From the UHGV virus genome UHGV-0168750: DNA of 14,223 bases; one strand, 5' to 3'. This document shows, piece by piece, positions 1-14,200 of this stretch; positions within the stretch are counted from its first letter, which is position 1, and every line of letters begins with the position of its first letter. Source of the stretch: a virus. The translations under genes were made by a program, and so were the position numbers. The notes under the pieces are model-generated. The model saw only the letters and a list, made by a program, of their open reading frames with translations, searched no databases and was not told the DNA's origin.

Positions 1-48
1 TCTACACGTAAGGAGTCGTCGGCAGCGTCAGATGTGTATAAGAGACAG
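1..48. other. Library artefact: Illumina Nextera-type adapter (P5 tail TCTACAC, 8-nt index GTAAGGAG, read-1/Tn5 mosaic-end adapter)
   Basis: Positions 16-48 read TCGTCGGCAGCGTCAGATGTGTATAAGAGACAG, the Nextera read-1 transposase adapter; 1-7 TCTACAC is the 3' end of the P5 primer and 8-15 GTAAGGAG sits where the i5 index belongs (from memory this is index 505). Exact string match read directly. Confidence 0.9.
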
Positions 49-49
49 G

Positions 50-280
50 CTTATTATTTATACAGCTGAGGAAACACACTGGCTCGGGTTGCTAGACGGT
101 AAATTTGAATCTCGTATATTGAATAAAAACACGATTTGGGCAACGGGCTCAGGTCAAGCTTTTGCTCGTGCAGCCTGGGCAACAGGTATAAGCGAAAAGA
201 ACATTATTCCATTAGTAGGATCAATTGATACCGCCACATCGGAAACGTATGACTTATTTTACAGGAAGCACTTACGATGA
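50..280 (+). CDS. Hypothetical protein, 5'-truncated at the adapter/contig boundary (C-terminal ~76 aa only)
   Basis: Open frame running out of the adapter to TGA at 278-280; the first six codons of the ORF-track call (32-49) are adapter sequence. Stop overlaps the next start (ATGA). Contains a GSGxAFARAA motif. Confidence 0.45.
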   Translation, partial: LIIYTAEETHWLGLLDGKFESRILNKNTIWATGSGQAFARAAWATGISEKNIIPLVGSIDTATSETYDLFYRKHLR

Positions 281-798
281 AGATAAACGCAGTTTTAATT
301 GGCGATGAAATTTACGTTAATACAAAAACGCAATATTTGTATTACGAAGGCATTACTGTAATAGACGATTACTACGGTAAATACGGTTGGTGGATTCCGT
401 CCCCTAATTCTTTACGGTTAGAAGAAGCATTAACTGCCGAAGAGAACAATCTGGAAAAGGAATGGAGTTATATCAGTTCCGTCATTGACGTCAGCGGTCG
501 AATTAAAGATGTCTACTGGGCTAAGGAATCAGGCTGGCGTGTTACACTTCACCAATCTGCACCAGTAAGACTGCTGTACGACCACTCGGACACATCGGAG
601 TTAGCGTTTACCATTGAGACGCTCTCGCTACGTAAAGATTTAGATAACGTGGGTAAAGGGAAGTGGTCTATTGAACGCGTGGAGGAGATTCTCAGTCACT
701 TTAAAGCCAACAACAAATTTAAACGTTGGTGTACATTACCTGAGTTAGTAGAAGAGTTGAAAAAGCGGGATTGCAAACCGCTACCTTTTAACCCGTAG
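277..798 (+). CDS. Hypothetical protein (173 aa)
   Basis: ATG at 277 overlaps the upstream stop (ATGA); uninterrupted 173-codon frame; co-directional operon context. No motif recognised. Confidence 0.6.
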   Translation: MKINAVLIGDEIYVNTKTQYLYYEGITVIDDYYGKYGWWIPSPNSLRLEEALTAEENNLEKEWSYISSVIDVSGRIKDVYWAKESGWRVTLHQSAPVRLLYDHSDTSELAFTIETLSLRKDLDNVGKGKWSIERVEEILSHFKANNKFKRWCTLPELVEELKKRDCKPLPFNP

Positions 799-843
799 TC
801 TTTTTTACAACTGCGGCTATTTTAATGATTAGGAGAAAAGAAA

Positions 844-1308
844 ATGAAATGTTTTGAATCTAAAGAAATTGTTGAGTTGTTTAAACAGCGTGAGAAAACC
901 GCTTTCCGTGACCTGTACGATTCTGATTATCGCCCACTGTTTGCGGTATTGTTGAAACTGGATAAAGAACCCGAAATCGCATTAGCAGAGGTACAGCACC
1001 ACCACGTCAGTTTCGTATTAACCGAAAACATGAGCCGGTGGGTAGATGCTATGCTGATCCGTATTGGGCTCTTGGAAACGCCACACCGTTGGGAAGTGGT
1101 TATTCAGAAATCATTATTCCCACGTGAAGACATTTTCAACAAATATCGTCCGAAACAGTATTACAACCACGACGGGTCGCCAAAACGTGCTTTCCTGGCA
1201 CCGCAACACTTCGTAACCTACGTAACATTGCGTTACAAAGACACCGTGGTGCCGTTTGACACCTACCTGGAAATGCGTGAGATAATTTTAGGGAAGAATC
1301 CGTCATGA
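844..1308 (+). CDS. Hypothetical protein (154 aa)
   Basis: AGGAG at 831-835, 8 nt upstream of ATG 844; stop overlaps the next start (ATGA at 1305-1308). Confidence 0.65.
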   Translation: MKCFESKEIVELFKQREKTAFRDLYDSDYRPLFAVLLKLDKEPEIALAEVQHHHVSFVLTENMSRWVDAMLIRIGLLETPHRWEVVIQKSLFPREDIFNKYRPKQYYNHDGSPKRAFLAPQHFVTYVTLRYKDTVVPFDTYLEMREIILGKNPS

Positions 1309-1787
1309 TTCAATTTTCTGTTGACTCAGAAAGACTGGCGTCGTTTAAAGAGCGTGCTCAGTCTGCAACTAAAAACGGTTACATTGAGAAAGGTGTTCGT
1401 GATACTTGTAAACTAATCAACGACCATCCACATCTGGCAACAATGTGGAGTTGTGAAGGTCACGGTATGTATTCCAAGTCGCCAGGAAATCTGCATATCG
1501 TTTTTGCAGTACATGCCCTCGGGAATCAAATTCCGATGCAGGTTATGTCCGAGCTTGCAAAATCCGATCTTCCCAATTTCTGGAATCTTAGTTTGTGTCG
1601 TCTTTATCTACCCGATGAATATACAGATTTGGTATATCTTGAACCTGATTACGGGTTAAATACCGACGACACTTCTTACTGGGCTTGGAAAGTCGGATAC
1701 ATGTGTCTGATTAATCGTCCCGCATTAGTCGAAACACGTCAAGCACTTTATAAAGCATTTCACACTGTATTAGTTGAGAATAAATAA
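1305..1787 (+). CDS. Hypothetical protein (160 aa)
   Basis: ATG overlapping the upstream stop; stop TAA overlaps the next ATG (TAATG at 1785-1789). Confidence 0.6.
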   Translation: MIQFSVDSERLASFKERAQSATKNGYIEKGVRDTCKLINDHPHLATMWSCEGHGMYSKSPGNLHIVFAVHALGNQIPMQVMSELAKSDLPNFWNLSLCRLYLPDEYTDLVYLEPDYGLNTDDTSYWAWKVGYMCLINRPALVETRQALYKAFHTVLVENK

Positions 1788-2479
1788 TGGCTACCAAACA
1801 AAAGAAACCTCGTAACAAAAAGTATAACCCGAAAGCAGCAGCTAACCGTACCGCACACACCATCGCTGAAAACGCATTAAACCGCATTACTTTTGTCGGT
1901 AGCTCGATTCGCCCGATCGGTCCGTACGCGGGCCGTGGTTTCCAGTTTACAACCTCACCGCGTATGCGTATGGCGGCCACTGATATGCTAATCGGCGGTT
2001 TGTTTGACGAGCCGCGTAACTGGAAGCTCTGGGTTGCCCATCTGTACGAAACTGACAATGGCGTTCAAGCAGAAACCATCGTAGCAACTCTTGATGACTA
2101 TACGTTGAGTGATTTCTGTCAGCACGGTGATAAAATCATTAAGTCACTCCGCGAGACAGAAGAAAACTACTTTGGTTATGCTTTTGTTGCAGCACCAAAC
2201 GAACGTTATGATTTCGACCAGGGAGAAGAACGCTTACTGGAAAACTTCATGCATTCTGGACTGTTAGACAAATCCTTACACCTACCTGAAGAAGAACTGA
2301 TGGTTACGCGTAAGGATATGGTAACGTTACTGTTAGCCGATCGTGGTCGTTTTGATATCACTGAATCGCATGTACGTAAAGTACAGAAACTCGTGGATAA
2401 GGTAGACGAAACTGACCTGGACACTAGCGAAGTGGCAACCCGTATCCAATCGGTGGTCAATCAGGAAGAGGATTATTAA
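1787..2479 (+). CDS. Hypothetical protein (230 aa) with a basic Lys/Arg-rich N-terminus and an acidic C-terminus
   Basis: Long uninterrupted frame; N-terminus MATKQKKPRNKKYNPK; TAATG coupling to the upstream gene. Confidence 0.65.
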   Translation: MATKQKKPRNKKYNPKAAANRTAHTIAENALNRITFVGSSIRPIGPYAGRGFQFTTSPRMRMAATDMLIGGLFDEPRNWKLWVAHLYETDNGVQAETIVATLDDYTLSDFCQHGDKIIKSLRETEENYFGYAFVAAPNERYDFDQGEERLLENFMHSGLLDKSLHLPEEELMVTRKDMVTLLLADRGRFDITESHVRKVQKLVDKVDETDLDTSEVATRIQSVVNQEEDY

Positions 2480-2481
2480 AC

Positions 2482-3003
2482 GTGATAGCGAGACTTGCGA
2501 GTTGGTTTAAGCAACGTCGGGCAAAGGCGGTCGAATGGCCGCCTATTACGCACGATGAAAAGGTGGTTGCTTTTCTGAACTATAACAAAGACTTGAAGAG
2601 ATTGGGCGAAATAATGCGCCTAAAGGAAACCCAAGTCTTTGCTAAGATTTCAAGTAGTGCTTTACGTAAACAAGTATTTCCCCACCTATCCTTTTCAGGG
2701 CAAGTTTATGCAATAACCGCAGAGAAATTTTTATCGATGGCGGGCAATGAAACCCCACGCATACGGTTCTCGGCTACAGATTCATCTGATGCGGTCGGTA
2801 CAGTTGATTTCGGACGATTCTATCGATGCATTAAAGACGTGGGCCATATACATGTTAAACGGGTATCAGAAACATCTGTAGTGATTTATCACCGTACTGA
2901 GAATGATTTGTTAGGGCGTGTTATAACGTTAACGAATTTACATAGTTTTTACGTTGATTTACTCACTGAGTTTTATCCAGAACCATGGTGTTTTATACGA
3001 TGA
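2482..3003 (+). CDS. Hypothetical protein (173 aa), GTG start
   Basis: GTG at 2482 lies 2 nt after the upstream TAA, preceded by AGGAAGAGGA; stop TGA overlaps the next ATG (ATGA at 3000-3003). Confidence 0.55.
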   Translation: MIARLASWFKQRRAKAVEWPPITHDEKVVAFLNYNKDLKRLGEIMRLKETQVFAKISSSALRKQVFPHLSFSGQVYAITAEKFLSMAGNETPRIRFSATDSSDAVGTVDFGRFYRCIKDVGHIHVKRVSETSVVIYHRTENDLLGRVITLTNLHSFYVDLLTEFYPEPWCFIR

Positions 3004-3212
3004 ACAGAGCTAATGGATATATCATCTCGGCAATTGTTTCAACCGTGCTGATTGTGACGATGTTGATGTTTTATGTCCGTGTGTCAGATGACTCACGCAA
3101 AGAAAGCCTTTATCGTGAATGTATGTCGGGAACGACTGTGGACAATCCGCGTTACAGCGAATTGGTAATGGCGTGCACAGAACATGCTAAGCTAATGGGA
3201 GATGGCCGATGA
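3000..3212 (+). CDS. Small membrane protein (70 aa) with one N-terminal transmembrane helix
   Basis: ATG at 3000 in an ATGA overlap; hydrophobic stretch YIISAIVSTVLIVTMLMFYV followed by a charged tail. The ORF-track start at 2985 is rejected because it overlaps the upstream gene. Confidence 0.5.
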   Translation: MNRANGYIISAIVSTVLIVTMLMFYVRVSDDSRKESLYRECMSGTTVDNPRYSELVMACTEHAKLMGDGR

Positions 3213-3406
3213 AGATTTGGTTACCGATTGTAGCTTTTGTTCTTATTGCGGGCGCACTAGCAAGTGCCGAGTGTGACAATCGTGTTTTAGAAAAGAAAAG
3301 CGAATTGTATCAGGATTGCATAAAGGACTACACACCCGGTACAGAGCTTCATGCGCAGGCTGTAAAAAGTTGTGCGCTGATGGCTGAATCGCAGACTCGT
3401 TCCTAA
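3209..3406 (+). CDS. Small secreted or periplasmic Cys-containing protein (65 aa) with a signal-peptide-like N-terminus
   Basis: MKIWLPIVAFVLIAGALASA then ECDN; four Cys in the mature part; ATGA overlap with the upstream gene. No canonical lipobox. Confidence 0.5.
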   Translation: MKIWLPIVAFVLIAGALASAECDNRVLEKKSELYQDCIKDYTPGTELHAQAVKSCALMAESQTRS

Positions 3407-3780
3407 TGCGTATCTGGACGTTACAGCTTGCTAAGTGGCGGTTAGCGAAATCGAAGGGATTTTACGCGGTAGATATTACAGTCAAATCAGGGCGAAAGGA
3501 ACTCGCCCCCGACTGGGATTTCTTAATGGCGTATAAAAACTCCACAAAGGACGCAACTGCTGAAGCCGACTATACCGTAAAGTATCTTTACAAGCTTGAA
3601 CGATTACTGGACTCAGATGCCGAAGTGTTGGTATCGTTACTTAGGCACGAAGACCTGGTGCTGATGTGTTATTGTCCCGCAGGTAAGTTTTGCCATCGAC
3701 ACTTACTGGCTAAGAAACTTCAAGACGTCGGAATGATGTTCGGTTTTGACGTTGAGTTATGTGGAGAATTAACGGACTGA
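3406..3780 (+). CDS. Hypothetical protein (124 aa) with a C-x-C-x6-CHR motif; possibly DUF488/YeaO-like
   Basis: TAATG coupling; motif LVLMCYCPAGKFCHRHLLAKKL near the C-terminus. Family assignment is from memory of the DUF488 pattern, not a search. Confidence 0.5.
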   Translation: MRIWTLQLAKWRLAKSKGFYAVDITVKSGRKELAPDWDFLMAYKNSTKDATAEADYTVKYLYKLERLLDSDAEVLVSLLRHEDLVLMCYCPAGKFCHRHLLAKKLQDVGMMFGFDVELCGELTD

Positions 3781-3807
3781 TTCGATTTTTAGATGTAAAA
3801 TGACCTT

Positions 3808-3852
3808 CTACCGCCCGATTCTATGGGCGGTAGGTGTTTTTATTTTTTTTTT
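3808..3852 (+). terminator. Rho-independent terminator closing the upstream small-gene block
   Basis: Perfect 9-bp stem CTACCGCCC (3808-3816) / GGGCGGTAG (3825-3833), 8-nt loop, then a T-rich run (3835-3852) including ten consecutive T. Confidence 0.65.
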
Positions 3853-3868
3853 GATCTGGGAGGTTTTA

Positions 3869-4429
3869 GTGGCCACTTACGTACCTGATTTAAGCCTGAC
3901 CTCAGCCGAATTAGTGGTCGCTTTAATCAACCACGATAACGGTTCACAGTTGTCTTTAAGAGAAATTCGTATTAGCAACACTGTGGTAAACCCGTCTCCG
4001 ACCACTTCGCGTCGTAACACACTGTCAGAGATTACAAAAATCAGGAAACCTGACGGTGCTTCTGTGGTTGTTTATTACGATCGCTTAGATGCGGAAGAAG
4101 TATTAGCTTCTGAACCTATTTTGATTTCGTTAGACGGTACTGAAGATAACATTCGTGACATTTTAGATGTTGTAAATGAATTCTGCGGAACGAACTTACA
4201 GCCTGACGATTTGCGCGCTTCAGATATCACATTAGGTAACGATCCCATTGCTGTTAACGTTGCTGACGATTCTCCTGCGTGGATGAATGCGTTTATGGTG
4301 ACGTTATTCGATACAACCGAACGAGCATTAGCCAACGAAGAAGACGCGATCTTCTGTATTGGCGATGTTGCTGTTCTTACATTTGAGGTTCCAGATGGCG
4401 ACTCAGCTGAAGAAAACCCGACTACATGA
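3869..4429 (+). CDS. P1a: conserved small protein (186 aa), paralogue of 13013-13528; likely tail-fibre-associated
   Basis: GTG at 3869 preceded by GGGAGG (3858-3863). N-terminus VATYVPDLSLTS..LINHD matches MGQFVPDLSLTS..LINHD of the paralogue; shared motifs KIRxP, YYxRLxAE, CG(T/S)NLQP(D/E)DL, VLTF. The ORF-track start at 3800 lies inside the terminator hairpin. Confidence 0.6.
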   Translation: MATYVPDLSLTSAELVVALINHDNGSQLSLREIRISNTVVNPSPTTSRRNTLSEITKIRKPDGASVVVYYDRLDAEEVLASEPILISLDGTEDNIRDILDVVNEFCGTNLQPDDLRASDITLGNDPIAVNVADDSPAWMNAFMVTLFDTTERALANEEDAIFCIGDVAVLTFEVPDGDSAEENPTT

Positions 4430-4856
4430 ACTTGACAGTTTTACCGGTGACCCACAGGGCGGGGTATTACTGTTTAGTAAAGAGAATAAAGAATACAAAA
4501 TTAACGCCGAACAGTTACTACCAACGAACACCGTAACTACGGTAAACGGTGCTGACGGCACGGCAACGATTAATCCAAATAACGTTACTGACGTTATACT
4601 GGTATTAAACGATCCTGCGACAACCTTAACTATCTCCCCGTTAACGGAAGCCAAAGCAAACGTTCGGGTTGAGTTTTATTTAACCGTTAAGCAAGGAACA
4701 GGGGCGAATAAGATTACTTGGCCGGATAATGTAAAATGGCCACATAACGCAACTCCTGTTTTGTCCTTTACAGCTAATGCGGAAGATACATTAGCGTTCT
4801 ATACGCTTGATGGTGGGACTACGTGGAAAGGTTCCCTCATCGCCGCAGGTTACTAA
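4395..4856 (+). CDS. P2a: small protein (153 aa) carrying the shared N-terminal module (putative virion-docking domain)
   Basis: ATG at 4395 preceded by GAGGT; residues 5-40 KKTRLHELDSFTGDPQGGVLLFSKENKEYKINAEQL align with the N-termini of the long fibre and of 13528-14148. Overlaps P1a by 35 nt. Confidence 0.6.
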   Translation: MATQLKKTRLHELDSFTGDPQGGVLLFSKENKEYKINAEQLLPTNTVTTVNGADGTATINPNNVTDVILVLNDPATTLTISPLTEAKANVRVEFYLTVKQGTGANKITWPDNVKWPHNATPVLSFTANAEDTLAFYTLDGGTTWKGSLIAAGY

Positions 4857-4858
4857 CG

Positions 4859-7800
4859 ATGAGAAAAACTTTTCAACGACACGCTATTTCTTACGCACTG
4901 TCGTTAGCCTACGGGCACCAAACATTCGTTACTCGAAATACGGGGACAACGAATGATGCTCACACAGACCACTTTATTCAGAATGAAGAAGGGGTCTTAG
5001 CTAATAACCGTCACTTTATTGCAGATACGATGGCGGAGTACCAGCCCAATGGTGATGCAACGACCGAAGGTCAATCGCTACACATCCTTGGGTACTGTCA
5101 TCTGTATATTGCAACTAAAGACCCAAGATGGTTAGATGCAGCAAAACATGCATGGGATGCTTACACTACCTACTTTTACGGTGGGCAAGCTATTCCGACT
5201 ACACCTCAGCGTTTTATTTGTAACTGGTTAGTAAACGGAAAAGAGCCGGTACTCGCGCACTATCCGATACACCCAACAGAACCTACACACGGTGGTTACA
5301 AATGTGTACCCGTCAGGTTCACTAACGGTCAGTGCAAAATACCACACGGTGCACCGTTCTGGGGTGAATATCTAGACACCTTTACGTTTGCTCATCGTGG
5401 TCATCCAACGTGGGGTGCTATTAATGCGGACGTACAGATTATCAAGGAGGATAAAGAAGGGTTAATCGATTGGGATGCTGTGTTAACGCATCTGATTACG
5501 AATCCCGATAAACCTTACGAAACGAAAGCCTGGGTTGACTGGCCAACGTTACTGAACAACGCTACTGGCTACACACCGCTGTGGGGTGGTTCTTCATCAA
5601 AAGGACCTAAGCACGATGTCGACTGGATAGTTGCCTGGACAGGTAACAAGATTCAGGATAGCGAGATTATTGAGTCGGGCTTAGCAGACGCCGATAAAGG
5701 TACCGTACAGTTAAAAGATACTCAATTAAACGGTGTCTATTTAATTAACTACGCGGTAAAACTTCCTGTCGAGCACGGCGGTTATGCTTTTAAACGTAAT
5801 GAACCGTGGCACAACCGACCCGTACATACACCATTCTTAGGCTCTAAGAACCAGTACGGTAATGCAGCAGATGCAGAACTGTGGTTTATCGACGCTTGTT
5901 ATTTGCTGTGGCGAATTACAGGTGAAGATAAATACAAACACGCGTTAGACTGTGCGTTTTACACCGCACACGAGTATACGTATATTGATGCCGCCGACAA
6001 GTTCTTTAGACGTTCTACGGCCGCAGAAACACCGTTTACCGATGGTATCTCTTACGACTTCGATTATCCCGATACCGTGAGCGTCGAATACGGTCGCGAT
6101 ACGAATGGCGATATCACTATCCACGCACCTAAAGCTGTACAACACTTTATGGAGCAGCAAGCAGTACGTTTTAGAATCAATAAAGATTCTAAGCTCAGAG
6201 TGACGTATGGTGGTGTGTGTAAAAACGGTGACCCGGTATATTGTCGTGCGATGGTTGACATTAATCCGGTAAAGGCTGACACGGAAGAAGTGAACTGGTA
6301 CGGTTTAACGTTACCCCGTTCTACTTCGTTAAGCGTTAAGCAATACGATATTGACTTAGGTCAACTTGCACGGATTACTACCCCAGAAGGGGAAGACTAT
6401 TTAATCGCAGATGCACGAGCCTGCTCGGATTACGGCGGTTGTACGTGGGAAGAACGGTTTGAAGACAATATCTACGATGGTCGTGCGGGTACCATTGTCG
6501 AAGCTTTATTTCCGAATGACGATGCGGGCTTTATTATCGGTTTCTGGTTAACCGAAGCGGAGAAGGTTAAGCCGGTTTCTATCGTTTATCGTGCGGACGC
6601 AGACTTTAACCTACGTTTAGTTGATTCTGATAACTGGCGTTGGTGGTGGATGTTACCGAACACGAACAACGAATGGCGACAAGTAACCTTAAATTTAGAG
6701 GACGCGACGTTATCGGGATACCAACCTGACCACACTGACGCTGATCCTGAGCCTTCAGCACCTAACTTCGATAAGGTTGACCAGGTTACTATCCTGCCCG
6801 ATTCTGCTGTAGACCACGCTCACTTTGCTTACTATTGCGTGAATGATGTCCCGCCGGTCTTTAATAAAGATGATGGGTATATCCTCACGTTCCGTATCGC
6901 TTTACGCGGTGGGAGTGAGTTTGACGCAAAAGTCGGCGATTGTACCATCAAAGACTATCGTTTAGACTCACTGGCGTATTGTCCTGGGACGATTCCGTTC
7001 TCGAATATTTATTCAGAAGGGTCTGAACAGCTCGGTGCATGGCACGGTATGCCCTACCCAGGTTATCAATATCCGTTTATGTACGCAATACACAAAGATG
7101 ACCGGTATAAACTGTGGTTAGAGAACCAAATACAGTTTATGCATGACTCGCAAATTGCGTATCAAAAACAGATTGGTGAGTTAGGGCCAGGTTGTGCAGC
7201 CTATATCTGGAATCGTTGGGATAACTACAGTTACGGAAAACCAGATACCTGGACAACATTCCATTGGGGTGACGATCACCCCTGGGCAGGCTACCAACCG
7301 CGCGCATTTCATGCTGCCTGTCGGTGTTGGTACGAGTTAACGTTACGAGGCAAATCAGTTCCTGAGACGTTAACAACCTATATCGAGAATTGGGTGAATT
7401 GGTTAGGTGGGTTTGTGGATAGGTTTAATGGCCACACGCCAAACGAGTTCCCCACAGCACCGAATAAGCCGGTTTGGGTAGAAGACGACTTTACAGCGCA
7501 TATGTGTGCGCTGTGGTTAGCGGGTTGTTGCTGGGCGTTACTTGCCGGTGCGACGAACCCTAACTACGAAAAAGTAGTTAATGCCGCAATTAAAGAGCTC
7601 GGTGACGGGTTTACGATTACGTCAATTCCAAACAAACCCATTAATGGTGCTTGGTCGCCTGCGCCACGAGAGTCTTCGGATAACGGAATGGCTTTTGGTT
7701 TCTATACCGGTGAAGCATTACGTGCTTTAGGACTTTATATCACTTATAAAACTTACGGAGCCAACACAAACATTTATCATGACTTAGCAATCCCAGAACA

Positions 7801-7864
7801 CGAAAGCGCGGTATTAGACGTCACCATCGCCTTAGAAGATGACGCATTAAAACCGGAATTATAA
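4859..7864 (+). CDS. Large Trp/Tyr-rich protein (1001 aa); putative virion-associated carbohydrate-active enzyme (depolymerase-like)
   Basis: ATG at 4859 is 3 nt after the P2a stop, in frame with the ORF-track GTG at 4823. Helical segments such as ADAELWFIDACYLLWRITGEDKYKHALDCAFYTAHEY and AHMCALWLAGCCWALLAGATNPNYEKVVNAAIKELGDG recall alpha/alpha-barrel glycosidases or lyases. Existence of the gene is secure; the function is inferred. Confidence 0.7.
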   Translation: MRKTFQRHAISYALSLAYGHQTFVTRNTGTTNDAHTDHFIQNEEGVLANNRHFIADTMAEYQPNGDATTEGQSLHILGYCHLYIATKDPRWLDAAKHAWDAYTTYFYGGQAIPTTPQRFICNWLVNGKEPVLAHYPIHPTEPTHGGYKCVPVRFTNGQCKIPHGAPFWGEYLDTFTFAHRGHPTWGAINADVQIIKEDKEGLIDWDAVLTHLITNPDKPYETKAWVDWPTLLNNATGYTPLWGGSSSKGPKHDVDWIVAWTGNKIQDSEIIESGLADADKGTVQLKDTQLNGVYLINYAVKLPVEHGGYAFKRNEPWHNRPVHTPFLGSKNQYGNAADAELWFIDACYLLWRITGEDKYKHALDCAFYTAHEYTYIDAADKFFRRSTAAETPFTDGISYDFDYPDTVSVEYGRDTNGDITIHAPKAVQHFMEQQAVRFRINKDSKLRVTYGGVCKNGDPVYCRAMVDINPVKADTEEVNWYGLTLPRSTSLSVKQYDIDLGQLARITTPEGEDYLIADARACSDYGGCTWEERFEDNIYDGRAGTIVEALFPNDDAGFIIGFWLTEAEKVKPVSIVYRADADFNLRLVDSDNWRWWWMLPNTNNEWRQVTLNLEDATLSGYQPDHTDADPEPSAPNFDKVDQVTILPDSAVDHAHFAYYCVNDVPPVFNKDDGYILTFRIALRGGSEFDAKVGDCTIKDYRLDSLAYCPGTIPFSNIYSEGSEQLGAWHGMPYPGYQYPFMYAIHKDDRYKLWLENQIQFMHDSQIAYQKQIGELGPGCAAYIWNRWDNYSYGKPDTWTTFHWGDDHPWAGYQPRAFHAACRCWYELTLRGKSVPETLTTYIENWVNWLGGFVDRFNGHTPNEFPTAPNKPVWVEDDFTAHMCALWLAGCCWALLAGATNPNYEKVVNAAIKELGDGFTITSIPNKPINGAWSPAPRESSDNGMAFGFYTGEALRALGLYITYKTYGANTNIYHDLAIPEHESAVLDVTIALEDDALKPEL

Positions 7865-7883
7865 CCCGCTTATAAAAAAAAAT

Positions 7884-7905
7884 GGGGGAGCATTCTACCT
7901 CCCCC
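7884..7905 (+). promoter_or_regulatory. GC-rich hairpin in the intergenic region upstream of the long tail-fibre gene
   Basis: GGGGGAG (7884-7890) / CTCCCCC (7899-7905) with an 8-nt loop, preceded by TATAAAAAAAAA (7871-7882); only a short T run follows, so a weak terminator or RNA stability/processing element. Confidence 0.3.
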
Positions 7906-7938
7906 GATCTTTTAGCTCCCGATAGAGAATTAAATATC

Positions 7939-10900
7939 ATGGCTAAAGCGGTCAAGAAAATACGTTTGCACGATTTACGTCCTTACGCCGGTGATATCGG
8001 TGAAGGCGTTTTGCTTTTTTCGAAAGACGAAAAAGATTATCAATTACCAGTCCGTGAGATCGTTGCTGATATTGACACCGTAAGGAACGCGGTTGCTGAT
8101 GCACAGTCCGCAGCAGCACAATCACAACAGTCGGCCACAGAAGCAACACAAGCAAAAGATTTAGCGGAAACCGCGAAACAGCAGGTTGACACTACCGCAT
8201 CAACTGTTAGCGAACAAGCACAAACGGTAGCAACAAAAGCGGCTGAGGTCGGCACAAAACATGCCGAAGTTTTAGCAGCAAAAACAGCAGTAGACACTGT
8301 TTTACAGTCGGTGAACGAAAAGGCTCAGGCCGTCTCTGCGAGTGAAAAAGCAGTCACAACAGCCGCCGCCGACGTAACGAAGAAAGCAGAAACTGTTACC
8401 CAGCAAGCTGGTCAAGTTCAACAGTCAGTCACTAGCATCACTGAAATTGCGGCAACTGTTGAAGCCAGTAAAGGCGCTGTGGAAGCTACTGCTGTACAAG
8501 TTACGAAAGACAAAGAATCCGCAGAAGGGGCAGCGACGCGTTCAGAAGCTGCTGCACAACGTGCTGAAGACATCGCTGCACAGGGGTTAATTGACGCCAC
8601 TACAGCTAACAAGGGTATCGTTAAACTTAATAATACCCTAACCAGTGATTCAGTAACGGAAGCGGCTACACCGTCGACAGTGAAGCAACTGAACGACGAG
8701 CTGCAATTAAAAGCCAACAAGCACTCACCGAACTTTACGGGGCAGCCGTCAGCACCAACACCTCCGAAAAATTCTAATGATACCAGTATTTCGACTACTG
8801 CGTGGGTACGTGCAGCTATCGCTGAATTAGTCGGTTCTTCTCCTGAAACGTTAGATACCTTAGCGGAATTAGCCGAAGCGCTGGGTAATGATCCTAACTT
8901 CGCAACAACGATTACTGAGAAACTTGCGCAGAAGCAACCTATCAGTCCGTTACTCACTGCAATCGCTGCGGTTACGACAGCGGCAAATAAACTCCCGTAT
9001 TTCACCGGCACTAATAAAGTCGGGTTAGCCGATTTTACAGAAACCGCCAGAACGTTATTAGCGAAAGGTTCAACAACCGAAATCATTGAGTTTTTAGGAT
9101 TAAAAGCCACCGTAGATAAAGCGAATGGCGCATTACAGAAAAACTCTAATGGTGCTGATATTCCAGATAAAGAAACATTTGCCCGCAATATTGGTCTGTC
9201 TCCTGACACTTATCTGCGTTTCCGTGGTGAAATGCCAACTGATGCGGATATCAACACTTTCGCCCCAGATACCAACTACACGGGTACGTGGTCGAAAGCA
9301 ACCTCGACCAACGCGACAATGGCAAAACACTTTCCAGAAGACGGTGCGGTCGGTTATCTGGAAGTGTATAAAGCGGGTAACTATAGCGGTGCACAACGTT
9401 TTACCTGTCGTAATGGTAACGTCTATAACCGTATGTTGTCAGGTGTGTGGAACGGCACTAATGGCCCGTGGTCACCGTGGAGAATGGTAACTACCGGTGT
9501 ACGTCCACTGGCTACATCAATTGACCTGAACTCCTTAGGCGGTGCCGAACACATGGGTAACTGGCGAAACTCGTCCAGTTCGTTGGCTACCTTTGCTAAC
9601 CACTACCCGGAAGAGGGCGGTGCTGCTCAAGGTGTTTTGGAAGTCATGGAAGGCGGTCTTTACGGACGTTTACAACGTTACACTACTCGACGTGGTACGA
9701 TGTATGTTCGTGGTTTGACGGCGACGTGGGATTCTACTAATCCGCAATGGGAAGATTGGATTCAGGTAGGTTATCAAACCGACGGCGCGTATTACAAAGG
9801 AAACTTCGATAACCTGACTAAACCAGGTCGTTTCAGCGTCACTGGAGAAGCCACGAATGGTCCCCTTACAGGTCCTTCGGGTGAAACATTGTTGGGTGTC
9901 TGTGCAGTTACTGTACGTTTAGACGGTACAGGGATCGAACAAACCTACACCACGCACGGTACAGGTGCGGAGTACAAAGGTCGACGTTTCCACCGTATTC
10001 GTACGGGTAATGTCTGGACGCCGTGGCGCGAGATTTACGACTCGAACAGTTTAGCCATGTTGTTAGGGGTCGGCGGCGAACGTGCGAATGTTGATCCTTT
10101 AGACTGGCAAACCTACGACTTTAAACCGGGTGAATTAATCTGTACGCCACTTAATACCATGAAAAACATTCCTGCGGGAATGGATTGGGGTGTTATCGAC
10201 GGTAATTTAATTAACATCCTGGTTGGGCCATCTGATGGCGCTACGTCAGGTCGAAGTATGTTGGTTTGGCGTAGTACGGTGTCTACCGCCAACTATCGCT
10301 TCTTTGCAGTACGTATCGCCGGTGAGAAGGGTAGCCGTACGATTACGCCACGACAAATGCCTGTGTTGAATGCGGCGCACACTTGGACAGAGAAACAGAC
10401 CTTTGCAAAAGGCTTGTCGGGCGAATTAACCGGTAATGCTTCAACCGCAACCAAATTACAAACTGCCCGGAAAATCGGTGGCGTTGGGTTTGACGGTAGT
10501 GGTGATATTAACCTCCCAGGCGTAAACCAACAGGGTAATCAAAACACCACGGGTAATGCCGGGACAGCCACTAAACTTCAAACCGCCAGAAATATTAACG
10601 GCGTGAGATTCGACGGTTCTGGCGATATTAATATCAACACCCTGGTAGGTCGTGGTCGGGTTACAGCTCTAACCGGCTCAGCGAAAGGTACACCTGGTAT
10701 CCAGATGTACGAAGTTTACAATAACGGTTATCCGACCGCTTATGGTAACTTACTACATTTAGGTGGTTCTACAGCTGTAGGCGAAGGCGAACTGTTAATC
10801 GGTTGGTCAGGTACTAACGGCGCACACGCCCCAGTGTTTATCCGTAGTCGTCGCGACAATGCGGAAGCACCATGGTCGGACTGGGCACAGGTATACACCG

Positions 10901-12441
10901 CCCGCGATAGCATCCCAGGGGTAAACGCGACTGGTAATCAAGATACTACCGGTAACGCGGCTACCGCGACGAAGTTGAAAACCGCTCGCAAAATTGGCGG
11001 TGTGAGCTTTGATGGTACTGGGGATATCAATTTACCGGGGGTTAACCAGCAAGGCAACCAGAATACGACAGGTAATGCAGCAACCGCTACCAAGTTACAA
11101 ACCGCAAGAACCATCAATGGTGTTGCGTTTGACGGCACTAAAAACATCGAAATAACGGCTGAAAGTTTAAATCTTGGTCAAACCGTAGAATTGGCCGGTG
11201 GGTCATTGCAGAAAAACCAGAACGGCGCAGATATTCCTGATAAGGGTCGCTTCCTGAGTAACATTAATGTTTACAGCAAAGGCGAGGTGGATGAGAAAAA
11301 AGGAATGCGGCAGTACGTATTTAACGCGCCGTCTAATGCCGTTGGCGGAAAGTGGTATCCAGTTATTTTCCGGCGTTCCACTGGTAGCACCGGCGAACTG
11401 GCTTCCAGAGTAGTTATTACAACTACATCTGCCGGTGGCGATTACGCAATGAATAACTGCGAATTCAATGGAACGGTAATGGCGGGCGGTTGGACTGATC
11501 GCGGTTCATACGCAGCAGGGTATTTTTCGATATATCAGACTAATGAGCGCGCAATCCATTCCATTGTAACAGGTGTGAAAGATGATGATGTGTGCAGCGT
11601 TTTTTACGTCGAAGGTAGGGCTTTCCCTATTCGAGTTTTTGCCGAAGAAGGGTTATCGGTTAGTGTTCCGACCCAGAATTATACCGTCGGTCAAACAACC
11701 TATAAGTGGGGAGCAACTAATCCTGCGACAGAAAGCACGAACGCACAAACCATTTTGGATTTTAACAATGGACGAGGATTTTATTGTTCCCATTCAATAT
11801 TCGCTATTAATAGTATTTTAAGCGGTAATCTGGGTATCGGTACCGCGAATGCTTTAGGTGGGAATTCCATAGTTTTAGGGGATAATGACACCGGTCTTAA
11901 ACAGAATGGGGACGGTATTCTAGATGTCTATGCCAACGGTCGACATGTATACCGTTTTCAAAACGGCATTGCTATTGCTCTTTATGGTGTTCAGGCTGGT
12001 AACGGTAAAAAACTTTCGTTAACTAGCGCAAACAATTCCACGTTGAATGCGGGTCTTAACATTTGGGGTAACTCTTCGCGTCCAACTGTTGTAGAACTCG
12101 GTGATGACGCAGGCTGGCATTTTTATAGCCAACGAAACACCGACAACTCGATATCGTTCGCCGTTAATGGGCAAATTCAACCGGGAAACTGGAGTAATTT
12201 CGATTCCAGGTACCAAGCACGGTCAGGAGTTGTCCAGGATGTTCGTTTCGGTGGTCAAAGTTATCATAACCCCGGGAGTAATACGACCTCTTGGAATTTC
12301 TCCGCTCCAGGTGGTCATTGTCTTACTGGTATTTCTATATCGGATACTGGCAAAAACTCGGCAGATAACGTTAACGGTGTTTATTATCGCCCGCTACAAA
12401 AATTGGTTAATGGTACTTGGTACAACGTCGCGTCGGTATAG
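7939..12441 (+). CDS. Long tail fibre protein (1500 aa)
   Basis: N-terminal shared module [36 protein letters not shown]; Ala/Gln/Thr-rich coiled-coil-like region; tandem ~75-aa domains; four copies of the tail-fibre repeat TGNAxTATKLxTARxIxGVxFDGSGDI; C-terminal [13 protein letters not shown]-type motif; followed by a Tfa chaperone gene. The ORF-track start at 7882 lies inside the hairpin. Confidence 0.85.
9247..10038 (+). repeat. Three tandem ~75-aa domain repeats inside the fibre (a fourth diverged copy at about 10640-10897)
   Basis: Each unit ends in a Trp-rich motif: [38 protein letters not shown], and in the fourth copy [12 protein letters not shown]. Protein-level periodicity; the nucleotide sequences are diverged. 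Confidence 0.45.
10432..10636 (+). repeat. Pair of tail-fibre sequence repeats (~33 aa each) inside the fibre gene
   Basis: [69 protein letters not shown]; the T-A-T-K-L...FDGSxDI pattern is the classical phage tail-fibre repeat shared by T-even and lambdoid side fibres. Confidence 0.7.
10933..11154 (+). repeat. Second pair of tail-fibre sequence repeats
   Basis: [74 protein letters not shown]; same motif as 10432-10636 with many synonymous differences, so an old duplication. Confidence 0.7.
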
Positions 12442-12443
12442 TT

Positions 12444-12974
12444 ATGTTACATTTAAAAAATATTCGTTCAGGAAACCCTAAAACTCCCGAACAGTGGGAG
12501 CTTACCAAGCGCTTAGGCGTCATATGGCTTTACGATGAAACCGGAAAAAATTGGTATGAGGAGCAAAAGAATTTTCAAGCAGATACTATAAAATTCGGGT
12601 ACGATGCGGACGGCATCATACGTTGGAAGGTTAAAGACATAACGTCGATAAACCCTGACAGTTTAAGCGTTGTTGAAGTTCCCGACGTTATTATAAACCG
12701 TCGTGTCGAATGTAACGGCGAGTGGATGTTTAAAGACGGACGCGCAATCAAGCGGATTTATACGCCGGAGGAGCTGGTTCAACGTGCTGAATCTAAAAAA
12801 GCCGTATTGTTGTCCGAGGCAGAAACAGTCATTAAGCCGCTTGAGCGGGCTGTTAAGCTGAAAATCGCAACAGATCTCGAGCGGTTACGGCTGGAAGCCT
12901 GGGAGGGTTATACTGTAATGATCAGTCGCGTCGATACTAATAATCCCGTCTGGCCTGAAAAACCGCTAATATAA
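12444..12974 (+). CDS. tfa: Tail fibre assembly protein (Tfa-type chaperone, 176 aa)
   Basis: ATG 2 nt after the fibre stop. C-terminus [46 protein letters not shown] matches the conserved Tfa motif (lambda Tfa ends ...[48 protein letters not shown], from memory). The ORF-track start at 12417 overlaps the fibre gene and is rejected. Confidence 0.85.
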
Positions 12975-13012
12975 CCAGCTTGAAACTTCTCTGAAAATTG
13001 GAGGTAAGCTTT

Positions 13013-13528
13013 ATGGGGCAATTCGTGCCGGATTTGTCACTGACCTCACCTAACATGGTTATTTCGTTGATCAATCACGACCTTCAGCTTGATCTGCAAG
13101 AAACCGATGTTGAGTTTAGCGAACTAAAATCTAGCGACACGATGGATCGTGACACCACTGCTGTTGTAAAGATTAGACGTCCTGGTAACAGAACGTTACA
13201 AATCTATTACAACCGTTTAACCGCAGAACGTTGGTTAAACCAGCAACCTATTCTGGTGCAAGTAACTGGCGAGGGGTTTAGCACACACGATTTAATCGAC
13301 GCGATTAACGCAGCCTGTGGCAGTAACCTGCAACCCGAAGATCTTCAGGACGATTCATTTACAGTAGGAAAAGACGCTGTAACGTTACAGGTATCACCTA
13401 ACTCCCTAAGTTATAAAGGCCAATTCTCTGTTTTGGTTTTTGGTAACGGCGAAGAAGCCGCGGTAACAAAAGACGACAACTTAATTGTTACCGCAGATAA
13501 TCGTGTCTTAACCTTCGGAGGTCAATAA
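13013..13528 (+). CDS. P1b: conserved small protein (171 aa), paralogue of 3869-4429
   Basis: ATG at 13013 preceded by TGGAGG; N-terminus MGQFVPDLSLTS..LINHD and internal motifs shared with P1a; stop TAA overlaps the next ATG (TAATG at 13526-13530). Confidence 0.65.
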   Translation: MGQFVPDLSLTSPNMVISLINHDLQLDLQETDVEFSELKSSDTMDRDTTAVVKIRRPGNRTLQIYYNRLTAERWLNQQPILVQVTGEGFSTHDLIDAINAACGSNLQPEDLQDDSFTVGKDAVTLQVSPNSLSYKGQFSVLVFGNGEEAAVTKDDNLIVTADNRVLTFGGQ

Positions 13529-14148
13529 TGGCTGAATTGGTAGGAAAGGTACGTGTTCACGAACTGCCGTCGCTTTCAGAAGACATCACGGGTGTAGTAG
13601 TCTTAGCGTCTAAGGAACAAACCGAATATCAACTCCCGATTGAGAATTTAGGGGGTGGCGAGGTTACAGTGAGTCCGTCAGCGAATAACATCCTTAAGTC
13701 TAACAGCGATGGACTGTTTGTTGACGGCGCACATCCTATTATACCGAAAATGGATGCAAAAACCTTATCGGGAAATATGGTGGTAGAAAAAACGCTGACA
13801 GGTGGCGCGGTAATCTGCAAAACAATGGTTGACGTTAATAATAGGCTGGGGATTTCGCAATTATCTGGAGTGTCAATTTATAGCCAGTGCCTGCTGGAAA
13901 ATAAATTGGTTTACCTGGCAGAAGACGGCAGTATTATTGATGCGTACTTCTACATCAGTAATACAAAAACCACTGCCAGTACAATAACGCACACTATTCG
14001 GGTTGTGTTAGCGAAGATACCTTCTAAAGTTATTGATATCACCGATTTGTCTGAAACTGAGGTGCAATACCAGGATGGTAATCTACCTGTTAAGATCGTT
14101 ATTAAACATCTTGTGGGTACAACACTTTCTCAGAATGGGATGAAATAG
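13528..14148 (+). CDS. P2b: protein (206 aa) carrying the shared N-terminal module; putative second short fibre or receptor-binding protein
   Basis: Residues 6-41 GKVRVHELPSLSEDITGVVVLASKEQTEYQLPIENL align with the N-termini of P2a and the long fibre; the C-terminal ~165 aa are unrelated to both. Confidence 0.65.
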   Translation: MAELVGKVRVHELPSLSEDITGVVVLASKEQTEYQLPIENLGGGEVTVSPSANNILKSNSDGLFVDGAHPIIPKMDAKTLSGNMVVEKTLTGGAVICKTMVDVNNRLGISQLSGVSIYSQCLLENKLVYLAEDGSIIDAYFYISNTKTTASTITHTIRVVLAKIPSKVIDITDLSETEVQYQDGNLPVKIVIKHLVGTTLSQNGMK

Positions 14149-14152
14149 TTTT

Positions 14153-14200
14153 AGGTAGTAGGGGCTAAGCCCCTACTACCTTTTTCTTTTTTTATTTTTT
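14153..14200 (+). terminator. Strong rho-independent terminator at the end of the fibre operon
   Basis: Perfect 13-bp stem AGGTAGTAGGGGC (14153-14165) / GCCCCTACTACCT (14169-14181) with a 3-nt loop, then TTTTTCTTTTTTTATTTTTT; begins 5 nt after the P2b stop. Confidence 0.8.

What the first reader, a model, noticed from the sequence alone, without database searches (positions are those of the whole stretch)
1..48. Contig begins with an Illumina Nextera adapter and index
Exact match to the read-1 transposase adapter, preceded by an 8-nt index and the last 7 nt of the P5 primer. The left end of the window is therefore not genomic: it truncates the first gene and creates a spurious start at 32. 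It may also mark a true physical DNA end (for example a phage genome terminus) where untrimmed reads pile up.
Basis: seen in the sequence. Interest (0 to 1): 0.55.

Follow-up and report, generated by a model that had tools for sequence, protein, structure and literature searches.

The report
Untrimmed Nextera adapter on contig tip
The first 48 bases of this contig are leftover Illumina Nextera library adapter, not biology, and the phage genome continues past that point, so it marks a routine assembly break and not a genome end.

Summary
Window 1-48 is an exact 48-nt suffix of the Nextera P5-i5-read-1 oligo: 7 nt of P5, index 505 (GTAAGGAG) and the 33-nt read-1 adapter. The window is a whole low-coverage SPAdes contig (ENA ERZ1026973 NODE_339, cov 5.3) from a SPN3US-like jumbo phage.

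Position 49 is not a genome end.
- A 584-bp contig from the same assembly (NODE_18602) overlaps window 49-77 exactly and carries 457 nt of upstream genome. Merging the two restores an intact 162-aa gene.
- A contig from another sample is 100% identical over 2,502 nt and also reads through the junction.
- Relatives of about 222 kb carry the intact gene at this spot.

The junction is therefore a Tn5 insertion site in the middle of a gene, in an AT-rich, thinly covered patch. The two contigs overlap by only 29 nt, probably too little for the assembler to join them.

The ATG at 32 lies inside the adapter's mosaic end and is spurious. Transposase libraries lose physical termini, and this phage group is inferred to package by headful, so the terminus idea is not supported. 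This is an artefact of low interest. In practice, trim positions 1-48 and treat the first gene as 5'-partial.

The parts
1..7 (+). Last 7 nt of the Illumina P5 flow-cell sequence (…GATCTACAC)
   Evidence: Exact match to the P5 tail. The primer sequence is given in PMC8225968.
8..15 (+). i5 index GTAAGGAG (Nextera index 505, N505/S505)
   Evidence: The same index flanks both ends of NODE_18602 from the same assembly.
16..48 (+). Nextera read-1 transposase adapter, 33/33 nt: 16-29 is the read-1 primer part TCGTCGGCAGCGTC, and 30-48 is the 19-nt Tn5 mosaic end AGATGTGTATAAGAGACAG
   Evidence: It has no homology to the relative L001, where real gene sequence sits instead. The same string occurs in 28 unrelated GenBank phage records, many of them at record ends.
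32..34 (+). Spurious ATG inside the mosaic end, in frame with the truncated gene. It gives the artefactual ORF 32..280.
   Evidence: The public gene..280 translates the adapter as LHVRSRRQRQMCIRDR.
49..280 (+). Genuine 3' part of a 162-aa phage gene of unknown function (phrog_23394): third base of codon 86 through the stop codon. The first 257 nt of the gene are absent from the contig.
   Evidence: PHROG match to profile positions 128-174 of 175. It is 82% aa identical to residues 85-162 of the relative's 162-aa protein. Merging with NODE_18602 restores MTTVLV…RKHLR*. There are 56 homologues, most of them 162 aa long.
49..77 (+). 29-nt exact overlap with the genomic 3' end of the neighbouring contig NODE_18602 (same assembly). 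This is the unjoined link across the contig break.

Best explanation
Window 1-48 is untrimmed Illumina Nextera adapter (P5 tail, i5 index 505, read-1 adapter with the Tn5 mosaic end) that the assembler built onto the tip of a low-coverage contig.

Shown:
- The string is the adapter.
- The window is a complete SPAdes contig.
- Real phage sequence continues to the left of position 49, both in the same sample and in another sample.
- Position 49 lies within codon 86 of a 162-aa gene.
- The neighbouring contig ends in the same adapter 29 nt further on.

Inferred mechanism:
- A tagmentation fragment beginning at position 49 had an insert shorter than the read length. Read 2 therefore ran through the insert into the reverse complement of the read-1 adapter, the i5 index and P5.
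- The reads were not adapter-trimmed, so the de Bruijn graph extended the contig into the adapter.
- Extension stopped after 48 nt, where the k-mer (probably k=55, holding only 7 genome-specific bases) became shared with other read-through junctions and the graph branched.
- The contig breaks here because coverage is thin (about 4-5x) in a locally AT-rich patch. The two abutting fragments overlap by only 29 nt, less than k.

Consequences: positions 1-48 must be trimmed, the first gene is 5'-partial, the ATG at 32 is false, and 16 adapter-encoded residues have entered a public protein collection.
For: - Exact 48/48 match, with 0.00 expected by chance.
- Index 505 and the P5 context agree with the published primer table.
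- Contig identity ena:ERZ1026973:NODE_339_length_14223_cov_5.27.
- NODE_18602 of the same assembly (584 bp, cov 3.8) has 485 bp of genome flanked by the same adapter and index at both ends. Its last 29 genomic nt equal window 49-77, and the merge restores the intact 162-aa ORF.
- ERZ653968 NODE_2098 is identical to window 49-2550 (0 mismatches in 2,502 nt) and carries 39 nt of real sequence left of position 49. Its own end is a 49-nt read-2-side adapter with index 726, at a point where the window reads on.
- The relative NZ_CP173450.1 has the intact gene, and homology to it starts at window position 49.
- The four adapter tips are 48, 49, 49 and 50 nt long, which is 55 minus 5-7. That is unlikely if read length set the tip length (about 8e-5).
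- The junction sits in a patch of 33-36% GC against a 45% contig mean, the 2nd-4th percentile.
- The same adapter string is present in 28 unrelated GenBank phage records, many at record ends.
Against: Nothing contradicts the artefact reading. Some steps are inferred, not shown, because the reads are not available here: the read-2 read-through, the lack of trimming and k=55. The break of a second sample's contig only 39 nt away is a mild coincidence (roughly 4-8% by a rough estimate). I attribute it to the AT-rich low-coverage patch, or to related libraries, without proof.
Confidence: 0.96

Rival explanations
1. The adapter marks a true physical end of the packaged phage DNA (a cos, DTR or pac-proximal end) at about position 49, where untrimmed reads pile up.
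For: Two assemblies from different ENA analyses break within 39 nt of each other (window start at 49; L003 starts 39 nt upstream). A neighbouring contig of the same sample ends 29 nt downstream. Terminally redundant genomes would still give reads that cross the end.
Against: Sequence crosses the point in the same sample and in another sample. The point is inside codon 86 of a conserved 162-aa gene, just upstream of the tail-gene module and far from any packaging gene seen here. Nextera adapters are inserted by Tn5, which needs DNA on both sides, so such libraries lose termini; PhageTerm found none in Nextera data (PMC5557969; PMC8785237). L003's left end carries no adapter at all. SPN3US-like phages are inferred to use T4-like headful packaging with permuted ends. 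Identical adapter tips occur at three other, unrelated positions in these contigs.
Confidence: 0.02
2. The string is genuine genomic sequence, for example a natural Tn5/IS50 end or a chance similarity.
For: The 19-nt mosaic end derives from Tn5 end sequences, and Tn5 occurs in enterobacteria (own knowledge).
Against: The mosaic end is preceded by the synthetic read-1 primer sequence, a catalogue index and the P5 tail, in the exact order of the commercial primer. None of these belongs to natural Tn5. Relatives and the same phage in other contigs have ordinary gene sequence there. Chance expectation is 0.00.
Confidence: 0.005
3. The adapter is the trace of a chimeric join: the contig originally continued to the left into unrelated DNA through an adapter bridge, and the window was cut there.
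For: Internal adapter bridges exist in some public records; several one search hits lie inside records and not at their ends.
Against: The window equals the full contig NODE_339_length_14223 (and L002 is identical to the window prefix). The adapter is therefore at the contig tip and nothing lies beyond it.
Confidence: 0.005

Closest known systems
Illumina Nextera / Nextera XT i5 index primer 505 plus read-1 transposon adapter (adapter contamination of assemblies)
   Same: The sequence and order match the published primer (P5 tail, GTAAGGAG, TCGTCGGCAGCGTC), followed by the mosaic end AGATGTGTATAAGAGACAG directly abutting the insert. It sits at a contig tip, as in many of the 28 GenBank phage records that carry the same string.
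   Different: Only the last 7 nt of the 29-nt P5 part are present. I attribute the 48-nt tip length to the assembler's k-mer size (inference).
Read-start pile-ups at phage termini as used by PhageTerm (ligation-based libraries)
   Same: An adapter-to-genome junction at a contig end superficially resembles a terminus signal.
   Different: That signal needs adapter ligation to free DNA ends after random fragmentation. Transposase libraries do not give it (PMC5557969). Here the sequence is also continuous across the point.
Seoul-like (SPN3US/Asesino-related) persistent jumbo phages found in bacterial isolate assemblies
   Same: The genuine part of the contig is 84-86% identical to tail-module DNA of ~222 kb circular records from E. 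coli and Enterobacter. Its tail protein is 74-80% aa identical to those of SPN3US and Asesino. The group is described in bioRxiv 10.1101/2024.12.31.630880.
   Different: This is context for the finding and not the finding itself. The contig is a 14 kb metagenomic fragment, and the hallmark genes (chimallin, terminase) are not on it.

Membership tests
Illumina Nextera library adapter (P5/i5/read-1 side) | 19-nt Tn5 mosaic end AGATGTGTATAAGAGACAG directly abutting the insert | tested here: met
   Window 30-48 matches exactly, and genome homology starts at 49.
Illumina Nextera library adapter (P5/i5/read-1 side) | Read-1 primer part TCGTCGGCAGCGTC immediately 5' of the mosaic end | tested here: met
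   Window 16-29 matches exactly.
Illumina Nextera library adapter (P5/i5/read-1 side) | 8-nt index from the Nextera i5 catalogue, preceded by the P5 sequence | tested here: met
   GTAAGGAG is index 505, preceded by TCTACAC, as in the published primer 505.
Illumina Nextera library adapter (P5/i5/read-1 side) | Non-genomic: absent from the same locus in the same organism and in its relatives | tested here: met
   L003, L005 and L001 all carry ordinary gene sequence in place of window 1-48.
Illumina Nextera library adapter (P5/i5/read-1 side) | The same adapter and index recur at other contig tips of the same library | tested here: met
   NODE_18602 of ERZ1026973 has it at both ends with the same index.
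Physical terminus of a phage genome | Sequence does not continue past the end (non-redundant genomes), or the end coincides with a repeat boundary | tested here: not met
   Two contigs read through 48|49. No terminal overlap or repeat was found at the window ends.
Physical terminus of a phage genome | Library chemistry able to capture free DNA ends | tested here: not met
   The adapter is the transposase type. The literature says such libraries lose termini.
Physical terminus of a phage genome | Position compatible with a packaging site (usually intergenic, or near the terminase, cos or pac site) | tested here: not met
   The point is inside codon 86 of a 162-aa gene just upstream of the tail-gene module.
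Physical terminus of a phage genome | Strand-specific pile-up of read starts well above background | not testable with these tools
   Raw reads are not available here. Only k-mer coverage from the contig names (5.3, 3.8, 2.3) is known.
Physical terminus of a phage genome | Phage group known to have fixed ends | tested here: not met
   SPN3US-like phages are inferred to be headful packagers with permuted genomes, from terminase homology (PMC5694885; PMC5690319). This is an inference in the literature, not a direct test on this phage.

The most novel reading that the evidence does not exclude
The clustering of three contig ends from two ENA assemblies within about 70 nt (window 49, L003 39 nt upstream, NODE_18602 ending at 77) might reflect a preferred physical break in the phage DNA. 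That could be a pac-proximal first cut or a fragile or nicked site in a Seoul-like jumbo phage. The alternative is a plain coverage dip in an AT-rich patch.
Probability: 0.02. Interest if true: 0.3.

Novelty: not a real feature. Interest (0 to 1): 0.04.

Why it matters
The value here is data hygiene. Positions 1-48 should be trimmed, and the first gene should be annotated as 5'-partial. The ATG at 32 and the 16 adapter-encoded residues (LHVRSRRQRQMCIRDR) are artefacts, and they have already entered a public protein collection, as has the tail PVSYTHLTLPTTPYV on the neighbouring contig's product. The case also shows that a transposase-adapter junction at a contig tip should not be read as a phage genome terminus. 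NODE_18602 and NODE_339 can be merged across their 29-nt overlap, which recovers the complete gene.

Tried and rejected
- I searched the viral contig collection for the 44-nt genomic sequence right of the junction and found no exact match.
- Megablast of the whole genomic part against GenBank phages found only tail-fibre fragments. A word-11 blastn search found only about 19% of window 49-3000 at 71% identity in SPN3US-like phages. The informative relatives came from E. coli genomes, plasmids and exact-protein look-ups instead.
- I looked for other adapter pieces, circular overlap and TruSeq adapters and found none, except a 13-mer of P7 at 13918. It is in frame in an ORF, with 0.05 chance hits expected, so I dismissed it as chance. 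I could not check it in the relative, because homology to the relative ends near 11148.
- The tRNA and Rfam scans of the window were empty.
- I looked up the adapter-fused 92-aa product to see whether a third contig shares the same tip. Only the source contig carries it. The third contig reported was not displayed and remains unseen.
- I considered and rejected the natural Tn5 end, chance match and internal chimeric bridge readings (see the rival explanations).

Full report
**Observation.**
Window 1-48 reads TCTACAC GTAAGGAG TCGTCGGCAGCGTCAGATGTGTATAAGAGACAG. A script confirmed three things:
- Bases 1-7 are the last 7 nt of P5.
- Bases 8-15 are the i5 index GTAAGGAG.
- Bases 16-48 match the 33-nt Nextera read-1 adapter 33/33, and the whole 48 nt is an exact suffix of the 70-nt P5-i5-read-1 oligo.

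A published primer table lists Nextera i5 index primer 505 as AATGATACGGCGACCACCGAGATCTACAC-GTAAGGAG-TCGTCGGCAGCGTC (PMC8225968). The 33-mer occurs once in the window even with 3 mismatches allowed, and 0.00 matches are expected in 200 dinucleotide-preserving shuffles. As an external control, the same string occurs in 28 unrelated GenBank phage records from hosts ranging from Vibrio to Bacillus, many of them at record ends. That pattern is typical of a laboratory contaminant and not of a biological element. The ATG at 32-34 lies in the mosaic end and opens a mechanical ORF 32..280.

**What the window is.**
An exact-protein look-up with the second gene identified the window as a complete SPAdes contig, ena:ERZ1026973:NODE_339_length_14223_cov_5.27 (the stored locus L002 equals the window prefix). 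Position 1 is therefore a real contig tip, and k-mer coverage is low. The genes form a phage tail and tail-fibre module. The 1001-aa tail protein is 74-80% identical to those of Salmonella phage SPN3US and Erwinia phage Asesino, which are jumbo phages of 240-246 kb. The closest DNA relatives (84-86% identity) are circular records of about 222 kb filed as plasmids of E. coli 98232 and Enterobacter ludwigii.

**Does the genome stop at 49? No, on four lines of evidence.**
- In the E. coli relative the first gene is a complete 162-aa ORF. Homology to the window begins at position 49, and window 1-48 aligns to nothing.
- The full-length 162-aa protein has 56 homologues, many on contigs of 222-226 kb.
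- A contig from another ENA analysis (ERZ653968 NODE_2098, L003) is identical to window 49-2550 with 0 mismatches in 2,502 nt. It carries 39 further nt of genuine sequence to the left of position 49, which matches the relative. L003's own right end is 49 nt of read-2-side adapter (CTGTCTCTTATACACATCTCCGAGCCCACGAGAC, index 726 CCTAAGAC, then ATCTCGT of P7). That adapter starts at a point where the window simply reads on, so each contig crosses the other's adapter junction.
- One homologue, P0054, ended in the peptide PVSYTHLTLPTTPYV, which is a translation of the adapter. Its contig is NODE_18602 of the same assembly as the window (584 bp, cov 3.8). It has 485 bp of genome flanked on both sides by the same P5-505-read-1 adapter (50 and 49 nt). 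Its last 29 genomic nt equal window 49-77. Merging the two contigs restores the intact ORF MTTVLV…RKHLR*.

Window position 49 is the third base of codon 86, so 257 nt of the gene are missing from this contig.

**Mechanism.**
Shown:
- Adapter sits at the contig tip.
- The genome is continuous across the junction in the same sample.
- Coverage is low.
- The overlap with the neighbouring contig is 29 nt.

Inferred from the standard layout of a Nextera library molecule (own knowledge, consistent with the primer table):
- The orientation P5-i5-read1-insert is the reverse complement of what read 2 produces when it runs through an insert shorter than the read.
- The reads were not adapter-trimmed, so the assembler extended the contig into the adapter.

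The four adapter tips seen are 48, 49, 49 and 50 nt long. If read length set these lengths they would scatter between 1 and 70 nt, and such clustering would have a probability of about 8e-5. The lengths equal 55 minus 5-7. That is what a k=55 de Bruijn graph gives when the k-mer's genome-specific part becomes short enough to be shared with other read-through junctions. k=55 is the largest default metaSPAdes k (own knowledge), and this step is an inference. The 29-nt overlap between NODE_18602 and the window is below that k, which would explain why the two were not joined.

The junction lies in a locally AT-rich patch: 33-36% GC against a 45% contig mean, the 2nd-4th percentile of windows. This plausibly explains a coverage dip, and also the mild coincidence that the second sample's contig ends 39 nt away.

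**The terminus idea.**
- Nextera adapters are inserted by Tn5. The PhageTerm authors state that transposase libraries "should not produce suitable data", and they found that termini were lost in Nextera data (PMC5557969). The phage annotation guide gives the same warning (PMC8785237).
- SPN3US and its relatives are inferred to use T4-like headful packaging, in which cutting is not sequence-specific and genomes are permuted (PMC5694885; PMC5690319).
- The junction is mid-gene and sequence is continuous across it.

Together these leave about 2% for a physical end. Only read mapping could exclude it fully.

**Comparison with what is known, and novelty.**
This is ordinary adapter contamination of an assembly. 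All defining features of the Nextera P5/i5/read-1 adapter were tested and met. Of the features of a genome terminus, four were tested and not met, and the read-start pile-up could not be tested. It is not a biological feature.

**Context noticed along the way.**
- The phage belongs to the 'Seoul-like' persistent jumbo phages recently reported from bacterial isolate assemblies (bioRxiv 10.1101/2024.12.31.630880). That explains why its relatives are filed as plasmids.
- Its tail fibre has a swapped distal part resembling P2, P1 and Mu tail fibres, followed by a chaperone gene.

**Verdict.**
Interest is low.

Noticed in passing
L005 (ena:ERZ1026973:NODE_18602) 1-50 and 536-584; L003 (ena:ERZ653968:NODE_2098) 2542-2590: Other contigs of the same phage also end in untrimmed Nextera adapter. 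NODE_18602 has it at both ends with index 505. NODE_2098 has the read-2 side with index 726 (CCTAAGAC). The tip lengths are 48-50 nt throughout, which suggests a k=55 assembly-graph signature and pervasive missing adapter trimming in these ENA assemblies.
   Followed up: partly
window 2-280; L005 250-582: Adapter-encoded peptides are on record in the public protein collection. One is the 92-aa product starting LHVRSRRQRQMCIRDR. The other is P0054, which ends PVSYTHLTLPTTPYV. Both are fusions of a real phage protein with translated adapter.
   Followed up: yes
window 49-11148 versus NZ_CP173450.1 (L001) and NZ_CP134650.1: The contig is a fragment of a SPN3US/Asesino-related ('Seoul-like') jumbo phage. 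Its nearest relatives are circular records of about 222 kb annotated as plasmids of E. coli and Enterobacter ludwigii. Homologues of the first gene sit on many 222-226 kb contigs, some of them from Salmonella isolate assemblies. This matches the 'persistent virulent phages' described in bioRxiv 10.1101/2024.12.31.630880.
   Followed up: partly
window 7882-12974: The 1519-aa tail fibre is mosaic. Homology to the nearest jumbo-phage relative stops near 11148. The stretch 11023-11745 is 79-82% identical to tail-fibre genes of P2-like phages, P1/P7 and relatives. A Tfa-type tail-fibre assembly chaperone follows at 12417-12974. This looks like an exchanged host-range cassette.
   Followed up: partly
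window 3800-4429 and 12998-13528: Two ORFs that look like paralogues both match phrog_2935 and phrog_1037 (virion structural protein; the first also carries PF25613 DUF7941). They flank the tail-fibre block.
   Followed up: no
window 13918-13930: A 13-nt exact match to the P7 flow-cell oligo (GCAGAAGACGGCA) lies in frame inside ORF 13528-14148, with no other adapter context. About 0.05 such hits are expected by chance given the k-mers tested, so I treated it as chance.
   Followed up: partly
window 8-34: The index GTAAGGAG contains a perfect Shine-Dalgarno-like AAGGAG at 10-15, 16 nt upstream of the spurious ATG at 32. Together they could lure a gene finder into calling a complete gene here.
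   Followed up: no
merged sequence around window 49 (about -200 to +100): The contig break lies in a locally AT-rich patch (33-36% GC against a 45% mean, 2nd-4th percentile). Contigs from two ENA analyses end within about 70 nt of each other here, which is probably a coverage dip.
   Followed up: partly
homologues P0055, P0056, P0046 and P0053 of the first gene: There are several variant products in other assemblies. P0055 and P0056 look like a +1 frameshift at an A5 run (GAAAAAGAA). P0046 has a 13-aa deletion between WATG repeats. P0053, on a 73 kb contig, diverges after about residue 108. These could be sequencing errors, real variants or insertions.
   Followed up: no
window 14149-14200; L005 190-235: Strong GC-rich hairpins followed by T-runs, which look like terminators by eye, follow the last ORF of the window (…GGTAGTAGGGGCTAAGCCCCTACTACCTTTTTCTTTTTTT) and precede the true start of the truncated first gene on NODE_18602.
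   Followed up: no
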